A stretch of DNA of 64,000 nucleotides, taken from positions 557,942 to 621,941 of the forward strand of contig OZ244939.1 in the NCBI GenBank assembly GCA_965222235.1. The letters run 5' to 3'. Positions within the stretch are counted from its first letter, which is position 1. Each line of letters starts with the position of its first letter. The notes under the pieces were generated by a model. It did not search any database. It was not told where the DNA came from and worked only from the letters and a program-made list of their open reading frames with translations. Made by a program: the position numbers and the translations under genes. Origin of the DNA: Minisyncoccota bacterium. Lineage in GTDB: Bacteria; Patescibacteriota; Minisyncoccia; Phycocordibacterales; JABAAK01. Shown here piece by piece: positions 4,333 to 47,491 of this stretch.

Positions 4333-5142
4333 ATGCTGTATGAGATAATCATCTCGCCGCCCTGGCTGATACTTATCATGTGTGTCGCGCTGTTTTTCTT
4401 CGGTGCGACGGTGGCCAGTTTTTTTGATGTCGTTCGCCTGCGGAAATCGTGGCGGCATTCGCTCCGCGGCAGATCGCACTGCGCCTCCTGTCGGAAAACG
4501 CTGACCTGGCGTGAACTGGTACCGATTCTGTCGTACCTGTCGCTGCGGGGAAAGTGCGCTTCCTGCAGTGCGTCCATTCCCGTGTACCATCTGTGCGCCG
4601 AGATACTGTCGGGCGCACTGTTCATATATATATTCCTCTTCGCGGATTCACTGTTCACCATCGGCATCGGCGTGCTTTCCGCGGTCTTTCTGGTCCCGAT
4701 TGTGCTTGAGGATATAGAGAGGATGGAGGTGCCGGAACATTTTTCGGTGCCGTTTGCGTACAGTGCGCTCGGCATCGCCGTCGCGGTGATGCTGCAGACC
4801 GGCGACATCACGCCCGCGATGAGCGCCGTGCTGCTTGCTGCCCCTTTCTACATCCTGTGGCTGTGCACGGGCGGACGGGCGATGGGTCTCGGTGATGCCA
4901 AGGTGGCAATTGCGCTCGGTATGCTGCTGCCGTCGCTCCTCGGCGCGGTGTCCGTCTTCATCTTCACTTTCTGGCTGGGGACCCTCGGCGTGCTCGGATA
5001 CATGGCGTACAAAAAAATCAGCACCGGACGGTACGGCATTGTGAAGCACATGCACATGCCGCTGGTGCCCGCCATGGCCGCCGCATATTTCATCGTTCTC
5101 ATCAACGGCACCTCCGTTCTGGATATACTCACACTGTTCTGA
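4333..5142 (+). CDS. pilD: Prepilin (type IV pilin leader) peptidase, A24 family
   Basis: The N-terminal zinc-binding CxxC...CxxC motif (CASCRKTL ... RGKCASCSASIP), the multi-TM body and a conserved acidic region are typical of PilD/GspO. The gene lies immediately downstream of the prepilin-type protein. Confidence 0.75.
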   Translation: MLYEIIISPPWLILIMCVALFFFGATVASFFDVVRLRKSWRHSLRGRSHCASCRKTLTWRELVPILSYLSLRGKCASCSASIPVYHLCAEILSGALFIYIFLFADSLFTIGIGVLSAVFLVPIVLEDIERMEVPEHFSVPFAYSALGIAVAVMLQTGDITPAMSAVLLAAPFYILWLCTGGRAMGLGDAKVAIALGMLLPSLLGAVSVFIFTFWLGTLGVLGYMAYKKISTGRYGIVKHMHMPLVPAMAAAYFIVLINGTSVLDILTLF

Positions 5143-5185
5143 TGCTTTGTCAGGTACGAGGTGCCTGTGCTACACTGACACCATT

Positions 5186-5262
5186 GCTGCGGTAGCTCAG
5201 CCCGGTTAGAGCGCCTGCCTGTCACGCAGGAGGTCGCGGGTTCAACTCCCGTCCGCAGCGCC
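5186..5262 (+). tRNA. tRNA-Asp (anticodon GTC)
   Basis: A cloverleaf can be read by hand. The acceptor stem is gctgcgg/ccgcagc, the D-arm gctc-agcccggtta-gagc, the anticodon stem cctgc/gcagg with loop ctGTCac, and the T-arm gcggg-ttcaact-cccgt, with discriminator g. Confidence 0.85.
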
Positions 5263-5496
5263 CTTCTGTGTGGACGAAGTAATGGAACAGCCACATTCAG
5301 CACACTTCAAAAGATTTCTATATGGATGCTGTTTAGTTACCTGTTTCTTTTGTGGTTTACCCCGCTGTTCCATTATGAGATGGCATGCATCAAAAAGTTT
5401 CTTGGTAATGATTGGCTTATATGTGCCTTCGTGCGTTTCGTCATTCCATTGTACTACAGATATCGAATCAAATGCTTTTTGTAGTGATGTACCTCT
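5263..5496 (-). pseudogene. Internal fragment (zinc-ribbon region) of a large serine recombinase gene, fused directly to the 3' end of tRNA-Asp and truncated at the other side by an R-element
   Basis: The minus-strand translation ...HEGTYKPIITKKLFDACHLIMEQRGKPQKKQVTKQHPYRNLLKCAECGCSITSSTQKG matches residues ~255-300 of the recombinase at 24772 (ELYEGTHKPLITKKLFDKVQHVLTDKSRPKTRLKTPHAFRGLLLCAHCDCSITSSVQKG). The reading frame runs straight into the tRNA 3' end. Confidence 0.6.
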
Positions 5497-5758
5497 GGGC
5501 GCCCCTAATGAGATAGCACGTGAACTGGTAATTATTTTCGATCTGTTTTTTGATATTCAACCCTTATGCTCGCTCCTGTTTTTGTTTGCCTTTCAAATTC
5601 TCGCCAAAGGCGAGAAAGTGGGGGCAGGACTTAAAATGAAAACAAAAACAGGAGCTCGCAAATTTTGTGTCAGCACCTTTCTTTTGCCTTTCTCTGCGCG
5701 CAGAGCGCGCAAAGGGGTCGGCGGTAAAATGAAAAAGAAAAGTGGTCTGACACAAAAT
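5497..5758. repeat. R-element copy, left arm of the inverted-repeat pair around RM cassette 1; contains a nested internal palindrome
   Basis: Bases 5497-5596 and 5690-5758 are the reverse complement of 9093-9250 (ggcgcccctaatgagatagcacgtgaactgg ... gcctttctctgcgcgcagagcgcgcaaagggg...taaaatgaaaaag). The extra ~95 bp in the left arm contains a palindrome (gctcgctcctgtttttgtttgcc / aaaacaaaaacaggagctcgc). This copy is homologous to the R-family body elsewhere, for example 24233-24330. Confidence 0.7.
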
Positions 5759-5864
5759 GTTTTCAACAGGCATTCTCTGTAAATACCCTGATTCTACTCT
5801 TTATTTTTTTGGTTTTTGGTGTATTTACTTATTGTGCTATTTTTCCTTGTTATATTTATATTAT

Positions 5865-6944
5865 ATGCCTCTAATGTTCAGCAAGATCATTAAAGATGAT
5901 TGTGTGGCGGCACTGAGGAAGATTAAAGAAGAATCAGTTGATTTGATTTTTGCTGATCCACCATACAATCTACAACTTGGCGGTGAACTATTCAGACCGA
6001 ATAATACAAAAGTTGATGGTGTTGATGACGCATGGGATAAATTTACAGATCTTAAAGAGTATGATAAATTCACAGTGAACTGGTTGCAAGAATCTAAAAG
6101 AGTGTTGAAACCCAATGGAACCCTTTGGGTTATTGGCTCTTACCATAACATCTATAGAGTTGGTTCAATATTACAAGATCTAGATTTTTGGATACTCAAT
6201 GATGTCGTGTGGATTAAATCTAATCCTATGCCAAATTTTAAAGGCACTAGGTTCAATAATGCGCATGAAACACTGCTGTGGGTTTCTAAGGACAAAAACG
6301 CTAAGTTTACGTTTAACTACAAGACAATGAAAACATCTAATGATGATAAACAGATGCGCAGTGACTGGGTGATTCCTATATGCTCTGGGAAGGAAAGAAT
6401 TAAAACACGTGACGGAGAGAAAGCACATTCAACACAGAAGCCAGAGGAGTTGTTAAAGAGAGTAATTATTTCTTCATCAAAACAAGGTGATGTGGTTCTT
6501 GATCCATTTTTAGGGAGCGGAACCACAGGCGCTGTTGCGAAAATGCTTAACAGGAGTTTTATTGGCATAGAGAGAGAGGAGAAATACATTACAGTTGCAA
6601 AAGAACGAATTAAGAAGGTGAAACGGTACAATGAGGAGTACACGGTAAACTTTCAGGAGGTACCCAAGCCAAGGGTCCCTTTTGGTAATCTTGTAGAAAG
6701 TAATTATATTAAAGTTGGTGTGAAATTATACTCAAAGGATAAAAAACACTGGGCAAAGGTAATGGCTGACGGAACTTTGAAGAATGGGAAGTATTTTGGC
6801 TCTATTCATAAGGTGAGTGCAGAAATGCTTGAACGGGAAAGCAATAATGGTTGGATCTTTTGGAATGTTCAAAAAAATGGTAAATTGGTAAGTATAGACA
6901 GTCTGCGTGAGTTATATTTTCAGGAGACAACTCTAGCAGGATAA
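5865..6944 (+). CDS. DNA methyltransferase, beta-class (N6-adenine or N4-cytosine; DPPY before FxGxG), with a ~120-aa C-terminal extension
   Basis: It has ...SVDLIFADPPYNL (motif IV) early and DPFLGSGTTG (motif I) late. The ORF track gives 5757..6944, but the first 36 codons lie in the R-element. The likely start is MPLMFSKIIKDD at ~5865. The gene is AT-rich relative to its flanks. Confidence 0.85.
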   Translation: MPLMFSKIIKDDCVAALRKIKEESVDLIFADPPYNLQLGGELFRPNNTKVDGVDDAWDKFTDLKEYDKFTVNWLQESKRVLKPNGTLWVIGSYHNIYRVGSILQDLDFWILNDVVWIKSNPMPNFKGTRFNNAHETLLWVSKDKNAKFTFNYKTMKTSNDDKQMRSDWVIPICSGKERIKTRDGEKAHSTQKPEELLKRVIISSSKQGDVVLDPFLGSGTTGAVAKMLNRSFIGIEREEKYITVAKERIKKVKRYNEEYTVNFQEVPKPRVPFGNLVESNYIKVGVKLYSKDKKHWAKVMADGTLKNGKYFGSIHKVSAEMLERESNNGWIFWNVQKNGKLVSIDSLRELYFQETTLAG

Positions 6945-6952
6945 AAGGGTAT

Positions 6953-8140
6953 ATGGCACGAATACGAAACGCAAAAGAAAGTCATGAAAGTGGCTACGAG
7001 AGAATATTAGGAGATAAAGAAATTTCAAATCTCATTACAAAAATTCATGCAACGATGATTAGTGCAGGATCTGAACTTGAGCGGTTACTGTATGAGGAAG
7101 CAAAAAATAAAATAGAGGACGGAGAAGACCTTGACGCTTATTTTAAGGGGAACAAGGAGTTTCCAGAAAATGATGGCATATATCTTGTTAATAAGAGAAC
7201 AATTAAAAAATCAAAAGCACTGAAATCAGACAAGGAACCTGATTTTTTAGGTGTAGATTTTAAAAAAAGCACCCTCTATATCATTGAGGTGAAAGACGGA
7301 GAAAACTTTGATACTAAAAAGTCCAGTGTTGAGCATGAGAATTTAATTAGTTATAGGGACTTTATTGCTCATAAAATACCATTTTCGTCAGTCATTTACA
7401 TCTGCCTGTTTAATACTAAAGATAAAGACAGAGCATCCAAGGCAGGGCTGAAGAGTAAATTTTCAAAAGAGGAAATCATAACTGGAAAAGAGTTTTGTGA
7501 TCTGTTCAACATAGATTTTAACCGTATTCAGAAAAGGCGAGAAGAAGATGTAAAAGATAATCTAAGATTTATTATAGAGAACGTAAAGCAGTGGTTGAGA
7601 AAATATATAAAACCTGTAAGAGAAGAAAGTGATCTTAGAAAGATGTGGGATGATCTTATAAGCAAGAACGGTTACGCAATTGTAAATTATGGTGAATGGT
7701 TCGCCATTAAGAATGAATTTAAACAGTGGGGGTCTGAGAAGCAAAAAGTGCGCATAGTGGCGCAAGCAAATGCTGGAGAGGCATTGTATGCGCCGGAAGC
7801 AGATTTGTTAGGATACCTTTTCTTTGATGATATGAAAAAGGTTGATATACAAAATGACTATGCGATACGGGTTGACGGTGACTCTATGAACAAAAGAAAG
7901 ATAAATGGTAAGTATATAGAGAATAGTGATTATGTACTTGTTCAATCGGATACTCCGCCAGAAGAAGGAGATGTGGTAGTGTCACTTGTAAACGGTGGGG
8001 TGAATATAAAGGAGGTTTATAGAGAAAACGAAGACGTGATATTGCGATCTCAGTCAAAGAGTGCCGGGTACGAAGACATACGGGTGAGAGAAGACGATTA
8101 CACCTATCTGGGCAGGGCAATTGATGTTTTTAAGGTGTAG
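6953..8140 (+). CDS. Putative restriction endonuclease (PD-(D/E)xK fold) fused to a C-terminal LexA/UmuD-like S24 serine autopeptidase domain
   Basis: The start lies 9 nt after the MTase stop on the same strand. The N-terminal part has EPDFLGVDF-x8-IIEVKDGE, the PD...ExK spacing of type II REases. The C-terminal ~130 aa align to the LexA C-terminal domain: an Ala-Gly (QANAG|EAL) lies 36 residues before VDGDSM (Ser nucleophile), and the Lys in GVNIKEV lies 42 residues after the Ser. The same spacing in LexA is 34 and 37 residues. Confidence 0.6.
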   Translation: MARIRNAKESHESGYERILGDKEISNLITKIHATMISAGSELERLLYEEAKNKIEDGEDLDAYFKGNKEFPENDGIYLVNKRTIKKSKALKSDKEPDFLGVDFKKSTLYIIEVKDGENFDTKKSSVEHENLISYRDFIAHKIPFSSVIYICLFNTKDKDRASKAGLKSKFSKEEIITGKEFCDLFNIDFNRIQKRREEDVKDNLRFIIENVKQWLRKYIKPVREESDLRKMWDDLISKNGYAIVNYGEWFAIKNEFKQWGSEKQKVRIVAQANAGEALYAPEADLLGYLFFDDMKKVDIQNDYAIRVDGDSMNKRKINGKYIENSDYVLVQSDTPPEEGDVVVSLVNGGVNIKEVYRENEDVILRSQSKSAGYEDIRVREDDYTYLGRAIDVFKV

Positions 8141-8211
8141 AGACGGGTCAGTTAATATTTTTTAACATTGTGGGTGTGGAGATGGTTTGATACACTGATC
8201 AATATTAAAGA

Positions 8212-9024
8212 TTGCACATGACTTCTAACTCAAGCAAAATATTGCAAATTAATTTTTTGCACCAAGATATACAAAAGCATTGTTCAGGTTATCGCAAATC
8301 GGAGGAATATAGGGATTGTGCAAAGAAGGCGTTTGATTTGGTACGTGATAGGTATCGGGAAAAATTTGGCAGTGAAATTGTACCCAAGGAATTTTTAAAA
8401 GTATATTACATAAAAGGCACGCGAGGTTCTAGCGGTAGTGAAGAAGATAAAAATTTTCAGAAAGGGTGTGAGTATGTATTGCGCTCAGTTAATAATTTTA
8501 GGCATGAAGTAGAGCACACAGATTCCACCACACCTATGACAAAAAAAGATGCTATGCACCATTTATGTTTATGTAGTATGGCTCTTAATTTTTTAGATCA
8601 AATGGAGCACTATCCAAATAATACACATCCGTTTACACGAAATGACTATAAGAAAGAAAAGATGAGCGGATCAATTAAATTTAACTATAGCAACAACAAT
8701 GGTGAATATCGTATCGGTAAGGATTTACATGCTTTTACTGTAAAGGTTAGTTCTTGTAGTGAAAATTCTTTATACGTATATCACGATCCAGAGTTGATAA
8801 AGGGAGTGGGATTGATATTTAAGAGATGTAAAGATTTGAAGACCCTAAACGAGAAAGCATTAAAAACAATTGATATGAGTTCAAGGTGTAGGAGGATGAC
8901 AGTGGAAAATACATGTATTCTTCTAAACTTAAATAATATGTATGTCGCACTAAATTTAGAAAGTGCAGAACGTGAATGTGGTCACATTGCTATTATAGAG
9001 TATCAAATATTGCCTAAAGGGTAG
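8212..9024 (+). CDS. Hypothetical protein, third gene of RM cassette 1; contains an Rx4HxH (HEPN-like) motif
   Basis: This is a 270-aa AT-rich ORF. The motif NNFRHEVEHTD fits the HEPN Rx4-6H signature, and no other fold was recognised. It is co-directional with, and immediately downstream of, the nuclease-S24 gene. Confidence 0.45.
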   Translation: MHMTSNSSKILQINFLHQDIQKHCSGYRKSEEYRDCAKKAFDLVRDRYREKFGSEIVPKEFLKVYYIKGTRGSSGSEEDKNFQKGCEYVLRSVNNFRHEVEHTDSTTPMTKKDAMHHLCLCSMALNFLDQMEHYPNNTHPFTRNDYKKEKMSGSIKFNYSNNNGEYRIGKDLHAFTVKVSSCSENSLYVYHDPELIKGVGLIFKRCKDLKTLNEKALKTIDMSSRCRRMTVENTCILLNLNNMYVALNLESAERECGHIAIIEYQILPKG

Positions 9025-9092
9025 CGTAAGGAAATTCGCAAGCGTGATTGTATAAAGATTAATCACGCTTGCGAATTGCAGTTTAGGCAGAT

Positions 9093-9250
9093 TTTGTTCA
9101 GACTCTTCTTTTTCATTTTACCGCCGCCCCCTTTGCGCGCTCTGCGCGCAGAGAAAGGCAAACAAAAACAGGAGCAAGCATAAGGGTTGAATATCAAAAA
9201 ACAGATCGAAAATAATTAACCAGTTCACGTGCTATCTCATTAGGGGTGCC
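9093..9250. repeat. R-element copy, right arm of the inverted-repeat pair around RM cassette 1
   Basis: This is the reverse complement of the 5497-5758 arm. It contains taccgccgccccctttgcgcgctctgcgcgcagagaaaggcaaacaaaaacagg, which is homologous to cagtaccgcccccttcacgcgctccgcgcggaaaaaaggcagaagaaaatgg in the R copy at 24255-24310. Confidence 0.7.
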
Positions 9251-9367
9251 TGAGGTGCCTGAGAAGATGTGCCGGGTTTGTGCAGGATGCTTTTGTTCGG
9301 CAGGGGTGTATCGTAGAGGAGGAATGTACCCTGCCCGATGATCTTGTATGGTATACTGACTATATAT

Positions 9368-11449
9368 ATGGCGACTGCAAAGAAGAAGACAACGGCTAAG
9401 ACCGGGAGGGGGACCACAGCAAAGAAGAAAACTGCTGGCACGTACGGCGCGAAGGATATTACCGTCCTTGAGGGGCTTGATGCGGTGCGCCGCCGCCCCG
9501 GCATGTACATCGGCACCACCGGCACCGACGGCCTGTACCACCTGATCTGGGAAGTGTTTGACAACGCGCGGGACGAGGCGATGGGAGGTCATGCTGACGA
9601 GATAGAGATTGTGCTGCTGCCCGGTGATGCGGTGCGGGTTGCCGACAACGGGCGGGGGATACCGACCGATATTCATTCAAAGACGAAGGTTTCCGCGCTT
9701 GAGACGATCATGACCACGCTGCACGCCGGCGGCAAGTTCGGCGACGGTGGCTACGCGGTATCCGGCGGTCTGCACGGCGTCGGTGTCTCCGTGGTTAACG
9801 CGCTGTCAAAGGAGGTGACGGCCGCGGTACACCGCGGCGGCTCCGTGTTTGAGCAGCTATACCGATTAGGGAAGCCGGTGACGAAAATGAAGAAGGTCGG
9901 GAAGACGGATGAGCGGGGGACGGTCATCACCTTCCGCCCCGACGAGTCCGTGTTTACCACGACGAAGTTTGACGGGACGGTCTTCTCTCCCGACCGGGTG
10001 CGGGATCACCTGCGCAGCCAGTCATACCTGGTGAAGTCCATGCATGTACGCATCGTTGATGCCCGCTCATCGTCCGTCAGCACGCCCGGGAACGACATAC
10101 TCTTCGTACACCAGCAGTTTCCTGACGCGCCGACCTATTCTTTTTTCTACGACAGCGGCCTCACCTCGTTTGTGCGACACCATAACAGCAGGCAGAAGCC
10201 TGTACACCAGCATATTTTCTATACGGAAAAGCAGATCGGTGCCGTGGGGGTTGAGGTCGCGCTCCAGTATGTTGACGACATCTCGTCCCGCATCTTTGCA
10301 TTCGGCAACACGATACCGAATGCCGAGGGCGGCACGCATGTGACGGGTTTCAAGACCGCGCTTACCCGGACGATTAATGCGTACGCGAAGGGGAAGAAGC
10401 TGGTGAAAGACGGTGACGGTTTCACCGGGGACGATGTGCTGGAGGGTATCACCGCCGTCGTGTCGGTGAAGATGCCCGAGATTCAGTTTGAGGGGCAGAC
10501 AAAGGCGAAGCTGGGGAGCGTTGAGGCACGCTCGGCGGTTGAGACGGTGTTCAGCGAGGCGTTCGGAACTTTTTTGGAGGAGCATCCGGCTGACGCGAAG
10601 AATATCATCATGAAGGTGTCTCTGGCGCAGCAGGCCCGCAAGGCGGCGCGTGCGGCGAAGGACAGTGTGCTGCGGAAGAGCGCGTTTGAGGTGGGCACCC
10701 TGCCGGGGAAGCTGGGAGACTGCCAGTCAAAGAGTATGTCTGAGTCCGAGCTGTTCATCGTTGAGGGTGAGTCCGCGGGCGGTACAGCGAAACAGGCGCG
10801 CGACCGCCGCACCCAGGCGGTACTGCCGCTCAAGGGAAAGATTCTGAATGTTGAGCGGGTGCGGATAGACCGGATGATGGCGTCTGAGGAGATCAAGTCG
10901 CTTGCCATCGTGCTGGGGACTTCTATCGGGGAGTCGTTTGATATTTCTAAACTGCGGTACGGCAAGATTATCATCGCCACCGATGCCGATGTTGATGGTG
11001 CCCATATCCGAACGCTGCTGCTCACCTTATTCTATCGCTATTTTAAACCACTCATTAAGGCGGGTCATATTTACTTCGCCCAGCCGCCGCTCTACAAGCT
11101 GAAGAAGGGGAAGGAGGAGCGGTACGCGTTTTCCGACGAGGACCGTGATTCGTTCATCAAAGAGCTTTCCAAAAAGAAATCTTCCGTCGCCGGGGACGAA
11201 GACGGCGGGGCGGATGAACAGGCAAAGGCCTCCGGCGTGTTCGTGCAGCGGTACAAGGGGCTGGGGGAGATGAACTACGAGGAGCTGCGGGATACCACTA
11301 TGGAACCGAAGAACCGGATTCTGAAGCAGGTTACGGTTGAGGATGCCGAGATTGCCGACAGGACCTTTGATATGTTGATGGGCAGCGAGGTCGCTCCCCG
11401 TAAGGTATTTATTCAGGAGAATGCGACCTACGCCACACTTGATGTGTAG
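9368..11449 (+). CDS. gyrB: DNA gyrase subunit B (type IIA topoisomerase ATPase subunit)
   Basis: It contains LEGLDAVRRRPGMYIGTT, GLHHLIWEV-like and VADNGRGIP (GHKL ATPase) segments, then the transducer, then the TOPRIM region ELFIVEGESAGG and ATDADVDGAHI, and the C-terminal tail. The ORF starts at 9338, and the likely start is MATAKKK at 9368. Confidence 0.9.
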   Translation: MATAKKKTTAKTGRGTTAKKKTAGTYGAKDITVLEGLDAVRRRPGMYIGTTGTDGLYHLIWEVFDNARDEAMGGHADEIEIVLLPGDAVRVADNGRGIPTDIHSKTKVSALETIMTTLHAGGKFGDGGYAVSGGLHGVGVSVVNALSKEVTAAVHRGGSVFEQLYRLGKPVTKMKKVGKTDERGTVITFRPDESVFTTTKFDGTVFSPDRVRDHLRSQSYLVKSMHVRIVDARSSSVSTPGNDILFVHQQFPDAPTYSFFYDSGLTSFVRHHNSRQKPVHQHIFYTEKQIGAVGVEVALQYVDDISSRIFAFGNTIPNAEGGTHVTGFKTALTRTINAYAKGKKLVKDGDGFTGDDVLEGITAVVSVKMPEIQFEGQTKAKLGSVEARSAVETVFSEAFGTFLEEHPADAKNIIMKVSLAQQARKAARAAKDSVLRKSAFEVGTLPGKLGDCQSKSMSESELFIVEGESAGGTAKQARDRRTQAVLPLKGKILNVERVRIDRMMASEEIKSLAIVLGTSIGESFDISKLRYGKIIIATDADVDGAHIRTLLLTLFYRYFKPLIKAGHIYFAQPPLYKLKKGKEERYAFSDEDRDSFIKELSKKKSSVAGDEDGGADEQAKASGVFVQRYKGLGEMNYEELRDTTMEPKNRILKQVTVEDAEIADRTFDMLMGSEVAPRKVFIQENATYATLDV

Positions 11450-11605: not shown

Positions 11606-12566
11606 TTAATGGTTCAATACATTTGCACATAGCAGCGATACTGCAGATGTATGAGACAACATCCCAAGAAAATCATTCAAATATACAAAGAAACAAGAGA
11701 TATACAGCATACTGCTGAACTGCTCGGTATCCACAGAACCACGGTATCCCGGTGGCTGAGACGGGCACGGTCACCGTATCCCTACGGGGAACCGCGGTAT
11801 GTCATGCGGGGACTGCAGCGGAAGAGCACGAGACCGAAGAGACTGAGGGAACCGGCACTCTCCGGGGAGGAAAGAGTAGTCATTGCGGCAATGAGGCAGA
11901 AACGGGGATGGTGTGCCGAGAAACTCAGGGAGGAAACCGGTATAGCGGTATCAGTAAGTACGGTGAAACGGTTCCTGATAGCCCGTGGCTACATACGACA
12001 GAAGAAGCGACATCGTCGTCCCTTGTGTCAGAATACAGTACATATGCACGCAAAGAACGCTGAAACCGTCGGCTACCTCCAGATGGATGTGAAGTACCTC
12101 ACCCCTGAATTGACAGGATTGCCCTGGACCTGTTTCGAGTATGCCATCATAGACATTTACTCCCGATACAAGGATGCCGTCATATACAATGATCTGAATC
12201 AGAATAATGCCATTTCAGCTATGACGGAAATAGTGAACCGTCTACCCTTCAGAACAGTATTCATCCAAACGGATAACGGTCTTGAATTTCAAAAAAGATT
12301 CCATACCCATGTAACTGCTCTCTGTACAAAACACCACTATATTCACAAATCAAGTCCTAACGAGAATGCCGTCATTGAACGATCGTTCAGGACTGATGAG
12401 GAGGAGTTCATCTACTACAAGGCTCCTTTCAAAGAATATGACGATCTCAGAGAACAATACGCCCAATACCTCCATCATTACAACCATGAGAGACCGCATT
12501 TCGGCATTGACCTTAAGAAACCCATAGATGTGGTACACTCATGTGCAAATGTATTGAACCATTAAG
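11606..12566 (+). mobile_element. IS481-family insertion sequence (copy 1) with 25-bp perfect terminal IRs and 7-bp target duplication gcgacac
   Basis: The ends are ttaatggttcaatacatttgcacat ... atgtgcaaatgtattgaaccattaa. The flanking gcgacac at 11599-11605 is repeated at 12567-12573. Removing the IS plus one TSD restores the IS30 transposase reading frame (ATG at 11590). Confidence 0.8.
11651..12565 (+). CDS. IS481-family transposase (N-terminal HTH + DDE integrase core/rve domain)
   Basis: It has an HTH (TAELLGIHRTTVSRWLRR) and an rve core with DVKY...TDNGLEF...NENAVIER. It is 100% identical to the protein at 26481..27395. Confidence 0.85.
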   Translation: MRQHPKKIIQIYKETRDIQHTAELLGIHRTTVSRWLRRARSPYPYGEPRYVMRGLQRKSTRPKRLREPALSGEERVVIAAMRQKRGWCAEKLREETGIAVSVSTVKRFLIARGYIRQKKRHRRPLCQNTVHMHAKNAETVGYLQMDVKYLTPELTGLPWTCFEYAIIDIYSRYKDAVIYNDLNQNNAISAMTEIVNRLPFRTVFIQTDNGLEFQKRFHTHVTALCTKHHYIHKSSPNENAVIERSFRTDEEEFIYYKAPFKEYDDLREQYAQYLHHYNHERPHFGIDLKKPIDVVHSCANVLNH

Positions 12567-13439
12567 GCGACACTGAAAAGAGCGGGGCTCTCACAGACAG
12601 CGATAGCAAGAGAGATAGGGGTACACAGAAGCACGGTATGCAGAGAGTTGCGGAGAAATGGCACGGAAAAGAAAGGGTATCGTCCAATATACGCGGAACG
12701 GAAGGCGAAAGAAAGAAGAAGAGAATCTAAGGAGCCCTACCGGAAGATAGACGGTGATCCTGATCTGCAGCAGAAAATTGAGCGGATGCTGCATCCTCTC
12801 ATCTCCCCTGAAGTAGTGGCACACCTCTGTGGTATACACCACCAGAGAATCTATGACCGGGTAAGAAGAGAGCGACCGGATCTCAAAGACAGGTTGCCGA
12901 GAAAAGGAAGGAAGAAAAGAAAGAAAACAGGAAAGAGGACAGTATGGGTCAGTACAACACGGTCAATACACAACAGACCGGAGACAGACGGGCTCTCCCG
13001 GGAGGGAGACACCCTGGTGGGGCCGACAAAGACAAGAATACTCACCCATGTGGAGAAGAAAAGCTTGTATCTTGATGCCAGAGTCATACGAGACGGTTTG
13101 TCCCACACCGTACATGAGACACTGCAAAAGAGACCGCTGCAGGGACAAATCACCTATGACTGCGGTTCTGAATTCACCCTATGGAAATGGATAGAAGAGG
13201 ATACGGGAGCGACTGTCTACTTTTGTGATCCTCATTCCCCGGGACAGCGGGGCAAGAATGAGAACACTAACGGCAGGCTCAGACGAGTCTACCCCAAGAA
13301 CACTGATCTCAGCACGATAGCACAACAGAATCTCAACAACATTGTCCACCTCATGAACAACACCCCGAGGAAGTCCCTTAACTGGAAAACTCCCGCTCAG
13401 GTGTATACTGCACTTGTTGCATCTCAGTCGAGAATCTAA
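12558..13439 (+). pseudogene. IS30-family transposase, 5' end disrupted by the IS481 insertion (first 5-6 codons lie at 11590-11605 upstream of the insertion)
   Basis: The in-frame translation reads ATLKRAGLSQTAIAREIGVHRSTVCRELRRNGTEKKGYRP... (IS30 HTH), then DDE, then CDPHSPGQRGKNENTNGRLRRVYPKNTDL, the IS30 C-terminal signature. The ORF track lists 12648..13439 (TTG start). Confidence 0.75.
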
Positions 13440-19091: not shown

Positions 19092-19826
19092 CAGAGATTA
19101 GACTCTCGACTGAGATGCAACAAGTGCAGTATACACCTGAGCGGGAGTTTTCCAGTTAAGGGACTTCCTCGGGGTGTTGTTCATGAGGTGGACAATGTTG
19201 TTGAGATTCTGTTGTGCTATCGTGCTGAGATCAGTGTTCTTGGGGTAGACTCGTCTGAGCCTGCCGTTAGTGTTCTCATTCTTGCCCCGCTGTCCCGGGG
19301 AATGAGGATCACAAAAGTAGACAGTCGCTCCCGTATCCTCTTCTATCCATTTCCATAGGGTGAATTCAGAACCGCAGTCATAGGTGATTTGTCCCTGCAG
19401 CGGTCTCTTTTGCAGTGTCTCATGTACGGTGTGGGACAAACCGTCTCGTATGACTCTGGCATCAAGATACAAGCTTTTCCTCTCCACATGGGTGAGTATT
19501 CTTGTCTTTGTCGGCCCCACCAGTGTGTCTCCCTCCCGGGAGAGCCCGTCTGTCTCCGGTCTGTTGTGTATTGACCGTGTTGTACTGACCCATACTGTCC
19601 TCTTTCCTGTTTTCTTTCTTTTCTTCCTTCCTTTTCTCGGCAACCTGTCTTTGAGATCCGGTCGCTCTCTTCTTACCCGGTCATAGATTCTCTGGTGGTG
19701 TATACCACTTAGTAATGGTACTATGAGTGTACATACGCCTGTTTGGTTATGGTTAGTAACATATCCATAGTACCAAGCGGGCGTATGTGTTTTTTCTTTT
19801 TGTTGCACTTCAGGTGCGAATTCAAT
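19092..19826 (-). mobile_element. IS30-family element copy 2, inverted relative to copy 1 and carrying a ~270-bp internal deletion (removes transposase N-terminal HTH region)
   Basis: Bases 19709-19826 are the reverse complement of 11473-11590 (IS30 left end plus leader), joined directly to transposase sequence from ...GIHHQRIYDRV onward. The right-end IR is at ~19092. The transposase remnant (ORF 19098..19808, 236 aa) is otherwise about 99% identical to copy 1. Confidence 0.75.
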
Positions 19827-21361: not shown

Positions 21362-21550
21362 TTATGTCGATCTCCCGCCCCTCTTATTCTTTTCTCTGTG
21401 TAAGTAAAAACTTCTTGAAATATGTGACTGGTCTACACCAAGTATTTTTGCAATATCTTGCTGGGGTGCACCTTCCTTTGATATGATGAATACCAAGAGT
21501 CGCTTGATATCTTCCAGATCTTTCTCCATTTTACTTTCCTTTGTTTTCAT
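21362..21550 (-). CDS. Small HTH DNA-binding protein (1 of 3 tandem paralogs; controller-like)
   Basis: A 62-aa ORF with the helix-turn-helix QQDIAKILGVDQSHISR. Confidence 0.45.
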   Translation of the reverse strand: MKTKESKMEKDLEDIKRLLVFIISKEGAPQQDIAKILGVDQSHISRSFYLHREKNKRGGRST

Positions 21551-21731
21551 ATATCCATTTCTTTTTTTTATCCAGGTCTTTCAGGTATGAGTTTAATTTG
21601 CCTGTTGAGATACCTATTCTTTTTGCTATGTCGGGCTGACCTAACCCGGTTTGGTGATAAAGAAGGGCAGTAATCTGTCTCAACAGTTCTATAACTTCTT
21701 CTTCGTTGCTTTTCTTTTTTGTTCTTTGCAT
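21531..21731 (-). CDS. Small HTH DNA-binding protein (2 of 3 tandem paralogs)
   Basis: A 66-aa ORF with the helix-turn-helix QPDIAKRIGISTGKLNSYLKDL. Confidence 0.45.
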   Translation of the reverse strand: MQRTKKKSNEEEVIELLRQITALLYHQTGLGQPDIAKRIGISTGKLNSYLKDLDKKKKWIYENKGK

Positions 21732-21735
21732 AAGA

Positions 21736-21948
21736 CTATTTTTTGTTTTTTGATTTAATTACAGCAACATAGTTTTTGCTCGTGGACAGTATCTCTGCGA
21801 TTTCTTCATTGGTCAGATCGAACTCGTTGAGAAATTTAATGTTTTCTGTGGCATCAGAGTCACCCTCTCTTTTGATCATCAGGGCAATGAGTACTGACAT
21901 TTTTTTTGACAATGATCTGAGCAGATCTGTGCTTGTTTGTTGCTCCAT
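21736..21948 (-). CDS. Small HTH DNA-binding protein (3 of 3 tandem paralogs)
   Basis: A 70-aa ORF with the helix-turn-helix NEEIAEILSTSKNYVAVIKS. Confidence 0.45.
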   Translation of the reverse strand: MEQQTSTDLLRSLSKKMSVLIALMIKREGDSDATENIKFLNEFDLTNEEIAEILSTSKNYVAVIKSKNKK

Positions 21949-22065: not shown

Positions 22066-22824
22066 ATGTCAATATGTTTGTTATACTTTACTTATGCAAC
22101 CCAAGGCGTACACTTTGGGTATATGGATAAAATAAACGATACACAGTCTTTTGACTTATTTCTACAGAGTGTCGATCTGAATAAGTATAGGGAGAAGTAC
22201 AAGCCAATCAAATTGGTGGAGATGGATTTGCCGAGAGATATTCAGGTATTGGACCTTATGTACGAGATTTATTGGGACAAGCGAGAGTATGTTGACTTCG
22301 ATGACTTCTACAAGAGTTATGAAAAACGGTACAAGGGTGAGATAGAGTCGTTCAGAGAAAAAATAACAATGTGCCCTAATTGTTTCTATCGGGGATTGCC
22401 TGCGAGAATATACAGAACTTGGGCAAGTATTATTACACAAATACATGCCGGCTATGTTGCTGAGCGGGTATTTGGTGCTGACATGGTGCGTATGTCCACC
22501 GAGCTTGACAGAAAGAGTGCAGATATACAGGTTTCTTATAAAGGACGCACACTGAATTATCAGGTTAAGAAAGTTACAAAGAGTCGGGAGGTGCGCGTAC
22601 AAAAAACTACAAACAAGCAGTTGGAGGGTGAGGCAATAGACATCAAATATTTTGTTCCTACACAGGAAGTTTTTGAAAAACCAAAGAAACTAAATGGTGA
22701 GTACAGAAAGCCATACCGTGATTTTATGGAAAACAAAAACTTAAAGAGGTTGGATAACGGCTTTGTGGTATTTACCCCTCATGTTTTTCGTGAGAAAAAA
22801 GAAGAGATTGATGTTTCTCGTTGA
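22066..22824 (+). CDS. Hypothetical protein, candidate restriction endonuclease of RM cassette 2 (convergent with and overlapping the MTase 3' end)
   Basis: A 252-aa AT-rich ORF. The likely start is MDKIND at ~22126. It has a CPNC pair and acidic/Lys-rich motifs (STELDRKSADIQVSYKGR), but no clean PD-(D/E)xK assignment. Its position and convergent overlap with the MTase are typical of type II R genes. Confidence 0.4.
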   Translation: MSICLLYFTYATQGVHFGYMDKINDTQSFDLFLQSVDLNKYREKYKPIKLVEMDLPRDIQVLDLMYEIYWDKREYVDFDDFYKSYEKRYKGEIESFREKITMCPNCFYRGLPARIYRTWASIITQIHAGYVAERVFGADMVRMSTELDRKSADIQVSYKGRTLNYQVKKVTKSREVRVQKTTNKQLEGEAIDIKYFVPTQEVFEKPKKLNGEYRKPYRDFMENKNLKRLDNGFVVFTPHVFREKKEEIDVSR

Positions 22825-24175
22825 GTTCTTGGTTTTTTAAGAGGCCATCAGCTAGCCGGATGTATTCTTTATTAATTTCCATACCGATAAAATCATGCCC
22901 GAGCTGTTTTGCTGTAAAACACTCTGATCCGGACCCGGCGAACGGGATAAGGACTAACCCCTTTTGTTCAAGGCAGGAATTGATAAGTTTTTCTGTGAGT
23001 AAGGATGGTTTTTGTGTTGGGTGTTTGAGGGTGTTATGCTTTCTGTGTTCTTCCAAATGTTTTGCCACATATGTTTCACCACAAGTTTTACAAAGAAAAT
23101 GCCGTTCTGATCTGCCGGCACCCCCGGCAAGCGCGGGTACTTTGATAACATCTCTTGGTAGGGCACCTTTTTTGTGTGCTTTGTATATTGTTGTGCTTTC
23201 TCCCTTGCTAAATCTGCAGGATTTTGAATTTCTTGTTTTGCCAGCAGAGTTTTTGAGGAATGTTTCTGAGTACGGTTCTCTAACTGCATCTCTGAAGAAT
23301 GTTGGCTTTTTTTCTTTCCATACACATAATATGCTTTCATGACTTCGTTGCCAGAAATTGAGAGAAGCAACATTTTTATTAGTGTAATGCCAGATCAACC
23401 ATCGTTTGTTTACCTGTATGTTTGGTGTGATATGTGCCAGTATTTCACTGAATCCGTAGATAAACATGGTCCCTTCATTTTTAAGGCATCGTAATCCCTC
23501 ATTAACCCATGTGTTGCACCATCCGACATACTCATCAATCTCTCTTTTATCTTTATTATTTCCAAAATCTTTTCCTATGTTGTATGGCGGATCTGCGATG
23601 ATAACATCAACACTTACATTTGGCATCTTTCGCATTTCTATTAATGCATCTCCGTGAATTATGGTATTTTCTTTTGGTATTTCTGTATTCAGTATTCTTT
23701 TTGAAACAAGATTAACACTCTCTTGTTCTTGTGTTTCAATTTTTCCCGTTACTACACCAAGAATGTCAATCTTATTTTTAGGAAATGATAGCAATTCTCC
23801 ATTGTCAGATATTAGCGTAATATTCCTTTTTGTTACATTTTTAATTCTTTTTATGGTGTCTCCTTTTTGTGTTCTTGCAATAATAACATCATCTTGTTTT
23901 GCTTGCGTTGCGTCTTCTACAAGAATAGTTGTACCATTTTTATAGGTATGTCGCATGCTATCGCCACTCACTGTTAGGGAATAATATTTTTTATTTGGTT
24001 TTAATATGTTTTCGGGGATAGTAATTGTTGAGAAGGTGCCACATATCGCTGTGCCGAGTGAGGTTTCGGCATAAACCTTACCGAGGAAAGGTATTTTTAC
24101 ATATTTCATATATATATAGTGTAACTGGAAAATTAGGTCATGTAGAAAAATCCACCATCGTATATGGAAATCCAC
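22772..24175 (-). CDS. Fusion protein: N-terminal LexA/UmuD-like S24 serine autopeptidase domain + C-terminal beta-class DNA methyltransferase
   Basis: Residues ~60-150 read YSLTVSGDSMRHTYKNGTTILVEDATQAKQDDVIIARTQKGDTIKRIKNVTKRNITLISDNGELLSF. This aligns to LexA VRGDSM...VVVARIDDEVTVKRLKKQGNKVELLPEN, with Ser73, Lys109 and a candidate Cys-Gly cleavage site 27 residues upstream. Residues ~170-467 read IIHGDALIEM...VIIADPPYNIG ... IPFAGSGSECF, a DPPY-then-FxGxG MTase. It is a single uninterrupted ORF. The likely start is MKYVK at ~24109. Confidence 0.7.
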   Translation of the reverse strand: MDFHIRWWIFLHDLIFQLHYIYMKYVKIPFLGKVYAETSLGTAICGTFSTITIPENILKPNKKYYSLTVSGDSMRHTYKNGTTILVEDATQAKQDDVIIARTQKGDTIKRIKNVTKRNITLISDNGELLSFPKNKIDILGVVTGKIETQEQESVNLVSKRILNTEIPKENTIIHGDALIEMRKMPNVSVDVIIADPPYNIGKDFGNNKDKREIDEYVGWCNTWVNEGLRCLKNEGTMFIYGFSEILAHITPNIQVNKRWLIWHYTNKNVASLNFWQRSHESILCVWKEKKPTFFRDAVREPYSETFLKNSAGKTRNSKSCRFSKGESTTIYKAHKKGALPRDVIKVPALAGGAGRSERHFLCKTCGETYVAKHLEEHRKHNTLKHPTQKPSLLTEKLINSCLEQKGLVLIPFAGSGSECFTAKQLGHDFIGMEINKEYIRLADGLLKNQELNEKHQSLLFSHEKHEG

Positions 24176-24771: not shown

Positions 24772-26479
<1,708 letters not shown>

Positions 26480-26484
<5 letters not shown>

Positions 26485-45047: not shown

Positions 45048-45079
45048 CTAGTGCTGTGCCGAATGCACCGAAGCCCTGA

Positions 45080-45400: not shown

Positions 45401-45475
45401 TGATGTCCACTACACTTTTCAAAAATATCAATTATTCATATATCGTATACTTAATTTCTTAACTGTAATTGTGAT

Positions 45476-46823: not shown

Positions 46824-46852
46824 CTATAAAATTATACCATGCAGTAGCGTAT

Positions 46853-47448: not shown

Positions 47449-47491
47449 GCCCTGATAGATATGTTTATTTTAATGTTAGAATATAAGTACT

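What the first reader, a model, noticed from the sequence alone, without database searches (positions are those of the whole stretch)
6953..8140. Restriction-modification enzymes fused to LexA/UmuD-type S24 autopeptidase domains, in two independent cassettes
Two unrelated RM-like cassettes each contain an enzyme fused to a LexA-like S24 domain. The placement is opposite in the two cases. In cassette 1 (5865-9024), a PD-(D/E)xK nuclease (EPDFLGVDF...IIEVKD) sits directly downstream of the MTase. It carries a C-terminal S24 domain with an Ala-Gly site 36 residues before the GDSM serine and the catalytic Lys 42 residues after it. In cassette 2 (22772..24175, minus strand), an S24 domain (VSGDSM...DVIIARTQKGDTIKRIK, Cys-Gly upstream) forms the N-terminus of a DPPY/FxGxG MTase. 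LexA, lambda CI and UmuD self-cleave when bound to RecA* filaments. So these architectures suggest a DNA-damage-responsive RM system. One possibility is built-in restriction alleviation or activation through RecA*-stimulated autocleavage. Another is regulated degradation or dimerisation through the S24 domain. I do not know of a characterised type II R or M enzyme with this fusion. Seeing it twice in 20 kb, in opposite domain orders, argues against a chance ORF fusion.
Basis: partly seen in the sequence, partly recalled or inferred. Interest (0 to 1): 0.9.

Follow-up and report, generated by a model that had tools for sequence, protein, structure and literature searches.

The report
Restriction enzyme carrying LexA-type self-cleaving tail
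A DNA-cutting defence enzyme in a tiny-genome bacterium is fused to the self-cutting module of the DNA-damage sensor LexA; the same fusion recurs on several unrelated restriction enzymes, so cell damage signals may switch restriction directly.

Summary
ORF 6953..8140 (395 aa) has two parts:
- residues 2-212 are a PD-(D/E)xK type II restriction endonuclease (PADLOC REase_II, E 4e-37; D97/E112/K114);
- residues ~240-395 are a LexA-type module with Ala274-Gly275, Ser311 and Lys353 at the exact LexA positions.

It sits 8 bp downstream of a CcrM/HinfI-type methyltransferase.

The fusion is not an artefact. Independent assemblies carry it, and both halves are under purifying selection. The same or a similar S24 module is attached C-terminally to at least five different nuclease types, each right after a methyltransferase gene. 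Its closest free relatives are ~211-aa Patescibacteria LexA-like repressors, so the nuclease has in effect replaced the repressor's HTH.

Cassette 2 is different. Its S24-methyltransferase is an N-terminally truncated member of a large CPR family (at least 104 clusters) of complete LexA-methyltransferase fusions paired with TaqI-like nucleases. The window copy has lost both the HTH and the canonical cleavage site (Ala-Glu).

Best reading: RecA*-coupled autoproteolytic control of restriction, probably alleviation. That step is inferred, not shown. I found no description in the searchable literature.

The parts
5185..5263 (+). tRNA-Asp, directly upstream of the low-GC island that holds cassette 1 (likely integration site)
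   Evidence: ARAGORN and Rfam. GC falls from ~56% to ~35% across 5-9 kb.
5498..5758 (.). Left arm of the long imperfect terminal inverted repeat that brackets cassette 1
   Evidence: the repeat finder I1-I3. blastn: 5498-5594 matches 9250-9153 at 97%, and 5683-5758 matches 9162-9091 at 92%.
5865..6944 (+). Methyltransferase of cassette 1: beta-class N6/N4 enzyme with a C-terminal RAMA domain, CcrM/M.HinfI-like (probable GANTC specificity, inferred)
   Evidence: Pfam N6_N4_Mtase E 6e-68 and RAMA E 4e-17. NCBIfam CcrM 570 bits, below the 830 cut-off. DPPY at aa 31 and FLGSGT at aa 215. 75% identical to the methyltransferase next to the HinfI-family nuclease-S24 fusion P0004.
6953..7588 (+). Nuclease domain (aa 1-212) of the fusion protein: PD-(D/E)xK type II restriction endonuclease with catalytic D97 (7241-7243), E112 (7286-7288) and K114 (7292-7294)
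   Evidence: PADLOC REase_II PDLC03487 E 4e-37. There are 16 free-standing homologues of 222-244 aa, and the two checked sit directly after a methyltransferase gene. The motif is nearly invariant. AF2 pLDDT is ~90 over this part.
7589..7738 (+). Connector (aa 213-262): a helix, then a Trp/Tyr-rich mini-domain that corresponds to the end of helix 3 plus the wing of a LexA-like winged helix. The HTH itself is absent.
   Evidence: Invariant W/I/G/Y/G/W/F/K/W/G positions in 5 fusion proteins on 3 nuclease families. BLASTP to the free Patescibacteria LexA-like protein P0289 begins at its residue 44, just after the HTH. AF2 gives helix-strand-helix with pLDDT 80-90.
7739..8140 (+). LexA-type cleavage-site region and S24 catalytic core (aa 263-395, plus the stop codon). 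Predicted scissile bond Ala274-Gly275 (7772-7777), nucleophile Ser311 (7883-7885), general base Lys353 (8009-8011).
   Evidence: Pfam S24. Alignments to LexA and UmuD. AF2 pLDDT >90, with Foldseek top hits LexA, lambda CI and UmuD. RecA-F203 pocket positions are hydrophobic. Ka/Ks against the 79%-identical orthologue is 0.15.
8212..9024 (+). Neighbouring gene: N-terminal Hypoth_Ymh (HEPN-clan) domain plus an unknown C-terminus. Probably a separate defence gene and not a conserved partner.
   Evidence: Pfam PF09509 E 7e-9. It is replaced by other genes in L001, L002, L004 and L009.
9091..9250 (.). Right arm of the terminal inverted repeat that brackets cassette 1
22123..22824 (+). TaqI-family restriction endonuclease of cassette 2 (the ORF opens at 22066; the likely start is Met at 22123)
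   Evidence: Pfam RE_TaqI E 1e-35. PADLOC REase_II E 1.5e-29. 65% identical to the nuclease paired with the full LexA-methyltransferase P0079.
23675..24109 (-). S24 domain (aa 1-145) at the N-terminus of the cassette 2 methyltransferase. Ser51 (23959-23957) and Lys87 (23851-23849) are kept. The LexA-homologous site reads Ala14-Glu15 (24070-24065). Cys23-Gly24 (24043-24038) is off-register.
   Evidence: Pfam S24 E 1.3e-16. Alignments and counts. Coordinates.
22772..23674 (-). Methyltransferase domain (aa 146-445; DPPY at aa 173, FAGSGS at aa 390) of the S24-methyltransferase. Its 3' end overlaps the convergent TaqI-like gene by 53 bp.
   Evidence: Pfam N6_N4_Mtase E 2e-39. Coordinates. The same convergent overlap is seen in L007, L017 and L018.

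Best explanation
**What it is (shown)**
The 395-aa protein is a genuine type II restriction endonuclease and the partner of a CcrM/HinfI-type methyltransferase. Its C-terminus is a LexA-derived self-cleaving module made of three pieces:
- a remnant of the winged-helix wing;
- the cleavage-site strand-loop with Ala274-Gly275;
- a Ser311/Lys353 S24 core.

In effect the nuclease has replaced the HTH of a Patescibacteria LexA-like repressor.

**How it most likely works (inferred)**
1. As in LexA, the S24 core dimerises and holds two DNA-binding (here nuclease) halves together.
2. When RecA filaments form on single-stranded DNA after damage or during recombination, RecA* docks on the S24 core.
3. 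RecA* stabilises the cleavable conformation, and the protein cuts itself at Ala274|Gly275.
4. My preferred outcome is restriction alleviation. The nuclease loses its dimerising or stabilising domain. The new C-terminus (...IVAQANA) makes the N-fragment a protease substrate, as happens to LexA(1-84). Restriction then falls while repair and recombination create unmethylated sites.

**Related fusions**
- The full LexA-methyltransferase fusions in related genomes would push the same way: cleavage removes the repressor head and methyltransferase expression rises.
- The window's own S24-methyltransferase (cassette 2) has lost the HTH and the canonical site. It most likely no longer responds. It resembles the post-cleavage product and keeps S24 as a structural or dimerisation domain.

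**Confidence by step**
- Architecture: ~0.95.
- Competent for self-cleavage: ~0.7.
- RecA*-coupled: ~0.5.
- Direction is alleviation: ~0.35.
For: **Domains and residues**
- Domain assignments.
- Ala-Gly, Ser and Lys fall on the LexA positions in 5/5 close and 3/3 more distant nuclease-S24 fusions, at 31-72% identity.
- The six LexA residues that form the pocket for RecA F203 (bioRxiv 10.1101/2023.10.30.564768) are V, A/V, Y, L/I, V, V in all five close fusions.
- A confident AF2 model of aa 196-395 (pLDDT 87) matches LexA including its cleavage-site region, lambda CI bound to RecA, and UmuD.

**Selection and independence**
- Purifying selection on the S24 part: pN 0.13, pS 0.55.
- Independent assemblies carry the fusion.

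**Recurrence on different nucleases, each directly after a methyltransferase gene**
- the PDLC03487 family;
- Pfam HinfI;
- MutH/Sau3AI-like;
- an unknown 230-aa domain;
- an HNH protein.

**Nuclease swap**
Between the window and P0004 the methyltransferase genes are 75% identical and the S24 modules 53-57% identical, while the nuclease domains are unrelated. The module therefore travels as a functional unit.

**Gene organisation**
There is no C-protein in these cassettes. M and R are co-oriented, 8 bp apart.

**LexA-methyltransferases**
Full LexA-methyltransferases keep all LexA features in 104/104 and pair with TaqI-like or MvaI/BcnI-like nucleases.
Against: - No experiment exists. Cleavage, RecA dependence and the effect on activity are all inferred.
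- Free-standing homologues of 222-244 aa presumably work without S24. The 274-aa cleavage product could therefore remain an active nuclease, or become one. That favours the rival 'activation' reading unless the fragment is degraded.
- The degron idea rests only on analogy with LexA (from memory: Neher et al. 2003).
- recA is not in the 64-kb window, and I could not inspect the rest of the genome.
- The close module is rare: three clusters at 50% identity, all from a few ENA assemblies. It was not found in GTDB genomes, JGI metagenomes or IMG/VR.
Confidence: 0.4

Rival explanations
1. Zymogen or timer. The S24 module keeps the nuclease inactive, sterically or by holding the halves in a non-productive dimer. 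Self-cleavage releases a ~274-aa enzyme equivalent to the free-standing homologues. The trigger could be RecA* raised by phage DNA or damage (inducible restriction or suicide). It could also be slow spontaneous cleavage that delays restriction until the methyltransferase has protected a new host, replacing the missing C-protein.
For: - Free-standing homologues lack S24, and the two checked sit in M-R pairs. The N-terminal product should therefore be a complete enzyme.
- No C-protein is present, and M and R are co-transcribed 8 bp apart.
- The cassette is mobile: it has terminal inverted repeats, sits next to a tRNA, and has a recombinase in the relative's locus. An establishment delay would therefore be useful.
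- This LexA clade lacks Glu at the E152 position. Loss of that Glu makes E. coli LexA hyper-cleavable.
Against: - Restriction has to act on incoming DNA at once. An enzyme activated only after RecA* forms would often be too late.
- The absence of Glu152 is shared by 120 free LexA-like relatives, so it is not specific to the fusions.
- LexA-type spontaneous cleavage is very slow at neutral pH (general knowledge).
- The full LexA-methyltransferase fusions suggest a 'protect the chromosome' logic rather than 'attack'.
Confidence: 0.25
2. The S24 domain is used only as a dimerisation or scaffold domain, or as a partner for other S24 proteins. It has no regulated proteolysis. This would apply above all to the cassette 2 methyltransferase.
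For: - LexA, CI and UmuD C-domains are dimerisation domains (general knowledge; solved structures listed).
- The cassette 2 subgroup has lost Gly85 in 9/9 and has no HTH. Classical cleavage there would remove at most ~14 residues.
Against: - For the nuclease fusions, Ala-Gly, Ser and Lys are kept in 8/8 proteins at 31-72% identity. This is not expected if catalysis were dispensable.
- Even the cassette 2 subgroup keeps Ser (9/9) and Lys (12/12). Some catalytic use is therefore not excluded, for example in trans or at the 7/9-conserved Cys-Gly.
Confidence: 0.15
3. The fusion is an artefact: a missed frameshift or stop, an assembly chimera, or a decaying pseudogene.
For: - Metagenome-assembled sequence.
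- Some related contigs from sample ERZ26869290 show mirror-image gene orders that look like fold-back assemblies.
Against: - The ORF is uninterrupted.
- A 79%-identical orthologue with the same length and architecture comes from a different sample and sits at the same chromosomal position.
- The same module is fused in frame to other nucleases in at least three further samples.
- Ka/Ks is 0.03 for the nuclease and 0.15 for S24.
Confidence: 0.02

Closest known systems
LexA / UmuD / lambda CI (MEROPS family S24, RecA*-stimulated autoproteolysis)
   Same: - Same fold of the C-terminal domain, including the cleavage-site strand-loop.
- Ala-Gly scissile bond about 36 residues before the Ser.
- Ser/Lys dyad.
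- Hydrophobic pocket that receives RecA F203.
- Modular logic: a DNA-binding part, then a cleavable linker, then a dimerising protease.

   Different: - The N-terminal partner is a restriction nuclease (or, in cassette 2, the C-terminal partner is a methyltransferase) rather than an HTH. Only the wing of the winged helix survives.
- NCBIfam LexA score is 45 bits against a cut-off of 111.
- No repressor function is expected.
Patescibacteria ~211-aa LexA-like 'S24 family peptidase' repressors (e.g. P0289)
   Same: These are the closest free relatives of the module: 35-40% identity from the wing to the C-terminus.
   Different: - They carry an HTH_20/LexA_DNA_bind head.
- They mostly use Cys-Gly (78/120) rather than Ala-Gly.
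LexA_DNA_bind + S24 + N6_N4 methyltransferase fusions of CPR bacteria (NCBI names them 'transcriptional repressor LexA')
   Same: - The cassette 2 methyltransferase is ~50% identical to them.
- It sits in the same convergent arrangement with a 65%-identical TaqI-family nuclease.

   Different: - The window protein and 11 close relatives lack the ~60-aa HTH head.
- They have Ala-Glu/Lys/Asp/Thr/Asn instead of Ala-Gly.
- The family itself appears undescribed in the literature I could search.
Restriction alleviation of type I systems (EcoKI: ClpXP destroys HsdR after DNA damage)
   Same: Proposed outcome: proteolytic down-regulation of restriction when damage or recombination creates unmodified sites (PMC11109961 abstract).
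   Different: - The mechanism here would be self-cleavage inside a type II enzyme, triggered directly by RecA*.
- Nothing of this kind is established for type II systems, and it is not shown here.
Type II methyltransferases with N-terminal regulatory HTH domains (M.SsoII/M.Ecl18kI type), and C-proteins
   Same: A DNA-binding regulator is built into, or placed next to, the RM genes to time methyltransferase against nuclease expression (own knowledge; review PMC3874152).
   Different: - In the CPR family the regulator is a complete, cleavable LexA.
- The nuclease fusions act post-translationally.
- Cassette 1 has no C-protein.
HinfI/CcrM-type (GANTC) and TaqI-type RM systems
   Same: - CcrM-like methyltransferase with RAMA.
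- The sister fusion uses the Pfam HinfI nuclease.
- Cassette 2's nuclease is Pfam RE_TaqI.
   Different: - The window's cassette 1 nuclease is not a detectable HinfI-family member. Pairwise E is 0.05, with only a shared ExK...D[ST]TKK motif.
- Cassette 2's methyltransferase is beta-class N6_N4, not the gamma-class M.TaqI.
- Specificities were not tested.

Membership tests
Peptidase S24 (LexA/UmuD/CI autopeptidases): protein 6953..8140 | S24 profile match and fold | tested here: met
   Pfam PF00717 E 7e-15, above the cut-off. The AF2 model matches LexA, CI and UmuD with probability 1.0 and target TM-score up to 0.82.
Peptidase S24 (LexA/UmuD/CI autopeptidases): protein 6953..8140 | Ser nucleophile (G-x-S-M) and Lys general base at the LexA Ser119/Lys156 positions | tested here: met
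   Ser311 and Lys353. They are invariant in 8/8 fusion proteins and in 120/120 free relatives.
Peptidase S24 (LexA/UmuD/CI autopeptidases): protein 6953..8140 | Ala/Cys-Gly scissile bond in a strand-loop about 35 residues upstream of the Ser | tested here: met
   Ala274-Gly275 aligns with LexA Ala84-Gly85 and is kept in 8/8 fusions.
Peptidase S24 (LexA/UmuD/CI autopeptidases): protein 6953..8140 | Actual self-cleavage, stimulated by RecA* or alkaline pH | not testable with these tools
   Only indirect evidence: the RecA-F203 pocket residues are hydrophobic in 5/5. recA is not in the window.
LexA repressor (TIGR00498 equivalog) | N-terminal LexA winged-HTH DNA-binding domain and a full-length score above the cut-off | tested here: not met
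   45 bits against a cut-off of 111. There is no LexA_DNA_bind hit, and only a wing remnant survives. The protein works like LexA's C-terminal half but is not a LexA.
Type II restriction endonuclease, PD-(D/E)xK: aa 1-212 | Profile match to a REBASE-derived nuclease family, with the D...ExK motif | tested here: met
   PADLOC PDLC03487 E 4e-37. D97/E112/K114 are nearly invariant.
Type II restriction endonuclease, PD-(D/E)xK: aa 1-212 | Genetic linkage to a cognate DNA methyltransferase | tested here: met
   The gene lies 8 bp downstream of the methyltransferase. The same M-R order is seen for orthologues and free-standing homologues.
Type II restriction endonuclease, PD-(D/E)xK: aa 1-212 | Similarity to a solved nuclease structure; sequence-specific cleavage | tested here: inconclusive
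   Foldseek against PDB gave only weak hits (EcoO109I, SdaI, Hjc; E > 0.07). Activity is not testable here.
Peptidase S24: S24-methyltransferase 22772..24109 | Profile match and Ser/Lys dyad | tested here: met
   Pfam E 1.3e-16. Ser51 and Lys87 are kept in 9/9 and 12/12 close relatives.
Peptidase S24: S24-methyltransferase 22772..24109 | Ala/Cys-Gly at the homologous cleavage position | tested here: not met
   The position reads Ala14-Glu15. Gly85 is replaced in 9/9 of the subgroup. The Cys23-Gly24 lies 9 residues downstream and is absent in 2/9.
CPR LexA-methyltransferase fusion family | LexA_DNA_bind + S24 + N6_N4_Mtase in one chain, convergent with a TaqI-family nuclease | tested here: not met
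   The methyltransferase (50% identity), the nuclease (65% identity) and the gene arrangement all match. The DNA-binding head is missing, and there is no remnant upstream. It is a truncated derivative.
Beta-class N6/N4 DNA methyltransferases (both cassettes) | DPPY and FxGxG motifs in beta order; PF01555 match | tested here: met

The most novel reading that the evidence does not exclude
LexA-type autoproteolysis is a built-in, post-translational switch of type II restriction-modification in CPR/Patescibacteria. RecA* filaments would directly cleave restriction nucleases (several unrelated nuclease types carry the module) and LexA-headed methyltransferases (more than 100 clusters). This would give the first restriction-alleviation mechanism for type II systems and a direct wire from the DNA-damage signal to a defence enzyme without transcription.
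Probability: 0.3. Interest if true: 0.85.

Novelty: new variant of a known kind. Interest (0 to 1): 0.7.

Why it matters
**The open question.** Type II restriction enzymes are a standing danger to their own host whenever repair or recombination makes unmethylated DNA. For type I systems a damage-induced proteolytic 'restriction alleviation' is known. For type II systems none is.

**What this adds.**
- A nuclease that carries its own RecA*-responsive self-cleavage module would be a compact solution. It can be tested with one purified protein and three point mutants.
- The recurrence on several unrelated nucleases shows that S24 is a portable regulatory cassette for nucleic-acid enzymes, not only for repressors.
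- The large family of complete LexA-methyltransferase fusions, now annotated simply as 'LexA', points the same way.
- These LexA-methyltransferase fusions also matter for annotation and for reconstructions of SOS regulons in CPR bacteria, which may be counting RM genes as LexA.

**Practical use.** Such modules could serve as damage- or pH-triggered off/on switches for engineered nucleases.

Tried and rejected
- **Fold search of the full-length AF2 model** (pLDDT 74). It gave no significant hit for the nuclease domain. That domain has no close solved relative, so the family assignment rests on the PADLOC profile, the motif and the gene context.
- **Scans for more copies of the close module.** GTDB genomes, JGI metagenomes and IMG/VR returned only distant LexA-like genes or nothing. 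A third protein search with the module profile returned only free ~211-aa Patescibacteria LexA-like proteins. That was useful for origin but not for spread.
- **recA or lexA in the window.** tblastn found neither.
- **Organism name.** Exact look-up gave none. CPR/Patescibacteria is inferred from 633-847 kb contigs and the taxonomy of relatives.
- **Glu152 signature.** The absence of Glu at the LexA E152 position (a hyper-cleavable change in E. coli) looked like a clue for fast spontaneous cleavage. It is shared by the free relatives, so it does not discriminate.
- **Promoter and terminator scan of 5100-9400.** Results were not above shuffled expectation.
- **Downstream HEPN/Ymh gene as a third component.** Rejected, because it is not conserved in any related locus.
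- **C-proteins distinguishing free-standing from fused systems.** They do not: neither has one in the two loci checked.
- **Operator upstream of LexA-methyltransferase genes.** An imperfect palindrome precedes the gene in L007 but there is nothing comparable in L005. Not pursued.
- **Literature.** Eight searches found no description of S24 fused to restriction or modification enzymes. The 2013 review of RM regulation and a 2026 preprint on CPR methyltransferases do not mention it.
Full report
**1. What is at the coordinates**

ORF 6953..8140 (+) is an uninterrupted 395-codon frame.
- Residues 2-212 match the PADLOC profile REase_II PDLC03487 almost end to end (E 4e-37).
- Residues 270-390 match Pfam Peptidase_S24 (E 7e-15, 55 bits against a 23-bit cut-off). 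They also match NCBIfam LexA and UmuD at sub-threshold scores.
- phmmer against PDB sequences aligns the tail with T. maritima and E. coli LexA. 'VAQANAGEAL' falls on 'VGRVAAGEPL', 'DGDSM' on 'SGMSM' and 'VNIKEV' on 'VTVKRL'.
- The residues are Ala274-Gly275, Ser311 and Lys353.

The neighbouring genes are as follows.
- Upstream, 5865..6944, is a beta-class N6/N4 methyltransferase with a RAMA domain. Its best match is CcrM, below the equivalog cut-off, so GANTC specificity is a reasonable guess and no more.
- M and R are 8 bp apart.
- The downstream gene, 8212..9024, has a Hypoth_Ymh (HEPN-clan) domain.

**2. The fusion is real**

- A 79%-identical, equally long protein (P0002) lies at the same chromosomal position in a 634-kb contig from another sample. 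That position is after the prepilin peptidase gene and downstream of an orthologous methyltransferase.
- Codon comparison gives Ka/Ks of about 0.03 for the nuclease part. For the S24 part pN is 0.13 and pS is 0.55.
- Free-standing homologues of the nuclease domain (222-244 aa) end where the extension begins.
- The two free-standing homologues whose loci I checked sit directly after an N6_N4 methyltransferase gene.

**3. The S24 tail is a portable module**

An exhaustive HMMER search of 1.84 billion cluster representatives, with residues 225-395 as query, found 347 hits. Most were ~210-aa LexA-like proteins, but several were fusions. Pfam and PADLOC scans and the gene neighbourhoods show the following.
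- **P0003/P0004:** a Pfam HinfI-family nuclease plus the same module (53-58% identity). It follows a methyltransferase 75% identical to the window's.
- **P0141:** a MutH/Sau3AI-like nuclease plus the same module (49%). It follows a C5 methyltransferase.
- **P0143:** an unassigned 230-aa domain plus a related S24. It overlaps the end of a C5 methyltransferase gene.
- **P0142:** an HNH-containing protein plus S24, after two methyltransferase genes.
- **P0152:** a Schlafen-type helicase/AbiO-like protein plus S24.

The window nuclease and the HinfI-family nuclease show no significant pairwise similarity (E 0.05). The flanking methyltransferase and S24 module are nevertheless conserved. The nuclease domain was therefore exchanged between two conserved parts.

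In all eight fusion proteins the LexA positions Ala84, Gly85, Ser119 and Lys156 are kept.

**4. Origin and structure of the module**

- A profile search with five modules returned only ~211-aa 'S24 family peptidase/LexA' proteins of Patescibacteria.
- BLASTP against one of them (P0289; HTH_20/LexA_DNA_bind head plus S24) gives 38% identity from its residue 44 to its end. That stretch runs from the end of the recognition helix, through the wing, to the C-terminus.
- The conserved Trp/Tyr-rich segment before the cleavage site is therefore a remnant of the winged helix. The nuclease has replaced the HTH proper.
- AF2 on residues 196-395 with a 128-sequence alignment gave pLDDT 87.
- Foldseek's best PDB hits for that model were LexA (including the 'cleavable' quadruple mutant 1JHE), lambda CI bound to RecA, and UmuD.
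- The six LexA residues that form the pocket for RecA Phe203 are V79, V82, F111, L113, V146 and V153 (bioRxiv 10.1101/2023.10.30.564768). In all five close fusions they are V, A/V, Y, L/I, V, V.
- This is compatible with RecA*-stimulated cleavage but does not prove it.

**5. Cassette 2 is a different story**

The minus-strand gene most likely starts at ATG 24109 (445 aa, identical to database entry P0021).
- It has S24 (E 1.3e-16) followed by N6_N4_Mtase.
- It converges on, and overlaps, a TaqI-family nuclease gene.

Its homologues fall into two groups.
- Eleven close relatives (61-87% identity) share the same short N-terminus.
- A very large set of ~505-aa proteins (~50% identity) carry LexA_DNA_bind + S24 + N6_N4_Mtase. 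They come from Parcubacteria, Kaiserbacteria, Falkowbacteria and other CPR lineages. NCBI names them 'transcriptional repressor LexA'.

In two loci the full-length form is convergent with a small gene. In L007 that gene is a TaqI-family nuclease 65% identical to the window's, with a C-protein beside it. In L005 the convergent 211-aa gene has no Pfam hit on record. In L018 a 621-aa LexA-methyltransferase of another methyltransferase type pairs with an MvaI/BcnI nuclease, right next to a truncated S24-methyltransferase/TaqI pair.

Counting on an alignment gives:
- full-length forms keep Ala84, Gly85, Ser119 and Lys156 in 104/104;
- the truncated subgroup keeps Ala (9/9), Ser (9/9) and Lys (12/12);
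- the truncated subgroup has Glu, Lys, Asp, Thr or Asn instead of Gly85 in 9/9.

From memory, G85D is the classical non-cleavable LexA3 change, and 1JHF is that mutant. No HTH remnant lies upstream.

The window's protein thus resembles the C-terminal cleavage product of a LexA-methyltransferase plus about 14 residues. It is probably no longer cleavable in the canonical way. Why it keeps the dyad is unexplained.

**6. Mechanism**

Shown:
- the domain composition and the catalytic and cleavage-site residues;
- the fold;
- selection and recurrence;
- the gene contexts.

Inferred:
- that the nuclease fusions cleave themselves;
- that RecA* stimulates this;
- that the result is a change in restriction.

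I favour restriction alleviation, for three reasons.
- LexA logic transfers directly: dimerising S24 holds two DNA-binding halves, and cleavage separates them and exposes a degradable end.
- The full LexA-methyltransferases would respond to the same signal by raising methylation, which protects the chromosome.
- Damage-induced proteolytic alleviation is established for type I systems (abstract of PMC11109961).

The main weakness is that free-standing homologues need no S24. The 274-aa product may therefore be fully active. That supports the rival view that the module is an inhibitory pro-domain or an establishment timer in a cassette lacking a C-protein. No data here decide the direction.

**7. 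Context**

- Both cassettes lie in low-GC (~35%) islands of a ~55% GC genome.
- Cassette 1 follows tRNA-Asp and is bracketed by ~160-260-bp inverted repeats.
- Cassette 2 lies next to a large serine recombinase and tRNA-Arg, inside a region flanked by two apparently identical IS transposase genes.
- The genome (a 641-kb contig) and its relatives (633-847 kb) have the size of CPR/Patescibacteria. The nearest S24 relatives carry that taxonomy.

**8. Novelty**

Eight full-text searches and two targeted readings found no description of S24 or LexA modules fused to restriction nucleases or DNA methyltransferases. The library lacks many subscription papers and REBASE, so prior mention cannot be excluded.

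The components are well known and the combination is new. I therefore rate it a new variant of a known kind. A specialist would find it surprising, and it makes the question of type II restriction alleviation directly testable.

The close module is rare (three 50%-identity clusters from a few ENA samples). The LexA-methyltransferase fusion, by contrast, is abundant.

Noticed in passing
window 5498-5758 and 9091-9250: Cassette 1 (M, R-S24, HEPN gene) is bracketed by long imperfect inverted repeats at 92-97% identity. The left arm carries an ~88-bp insertion. The repeats lie between tRNA-Asp and gyrB, and there is no other copy in the window. This suggests the RM cassette is, or was, a mobile unit.
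   Followed up: partly
L018 2172-4735 (genome of P0026); also P0264: A second kind of LexA-methyltransferase is present: a 621-aa LexA_DNA_bind+S24+N6_N4_Mtase convergent with an MvaI/BcnI-family nuclease. It is adjacent to a truncated S24-methyltransferase/TaqI pair. LexA heads therefore occur on at least two methyltransferase families.
   Followed up: partly
P0152 (685 aa): A Schlafen-group-3 helicase/AbiO-like defence protein carries a C-terminal S24 module with Ala-Gly, Ser and Lys intact. The module is therefore not restricted to RM nucleases.
   Followed up: no
window 11651-12565 (+) and 26481-27395 (-): Two 304-aa IS transposase ORFs (HTH + rve_3) have identical Pfam scores and are apparently identical copies in inverted orientation. 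They flank the 12-27 kb low-GC region that contains cassette 2. Further degenerate rve_3 ORFs lie at 12648-13439 and 19098-19808.
   Followed up: no
window 24772-26484 (+) and 26315-26389 (-): A large serine recombinase (Resolvase + Recombinase + Zn_ribbon_recom) has an ORF that runs on through tRNA-Arg(TCT) on the opposite strand. This is likely the integrase and attachment site of the island carrying cassette 2.
   Followed up: no
window 21362-21948 (-): Three tandem small ORFs (62, 66 and 70 aa) have HTH-like 'DIAK(I/R)LG' segments. They are divergent from the TaqI-like nuclease gene, whereas related loci (L007) have one HTH_3 C-protein in front of the nuclease. They may be regulators. Not analysed.
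   Followed up: no
window 8212-9024; L004 9226-10359: Different HEPN-type genes follow the R-S24 gene in the window (Hypoth_Ymh plus an unknown C-terminus) and in its closest relative (AAA_15/AAA_21 + HEPN_AbiU2). The spot looks like a small defence-gene hotspot.
   Followed up: partly
L009, L025, L026 (sample ERZ26869290): These contigs show mirror-image gene orders (the same genes repeated in inverted order). This looks like fold-back assembly artefacts or genuine large inverted duplications. The gene-level conclusions are unaffected.
   Followed up: no
window 45000-50000: A third low-GC (33-41%) island ends at tRNA-Arg(GCG) 49910-49982. Its contents were not examined.
   Followed up: no
L007 4950-4995: An imperfect palindrome (TTATTCTATTATAC...GTATAAGAATAA) lies immediately upstream of a full LexA-methyltransferase gene and is a candidate operator for autoregulation. 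Nothing comparable was seen in L005.
   Followed up: partly
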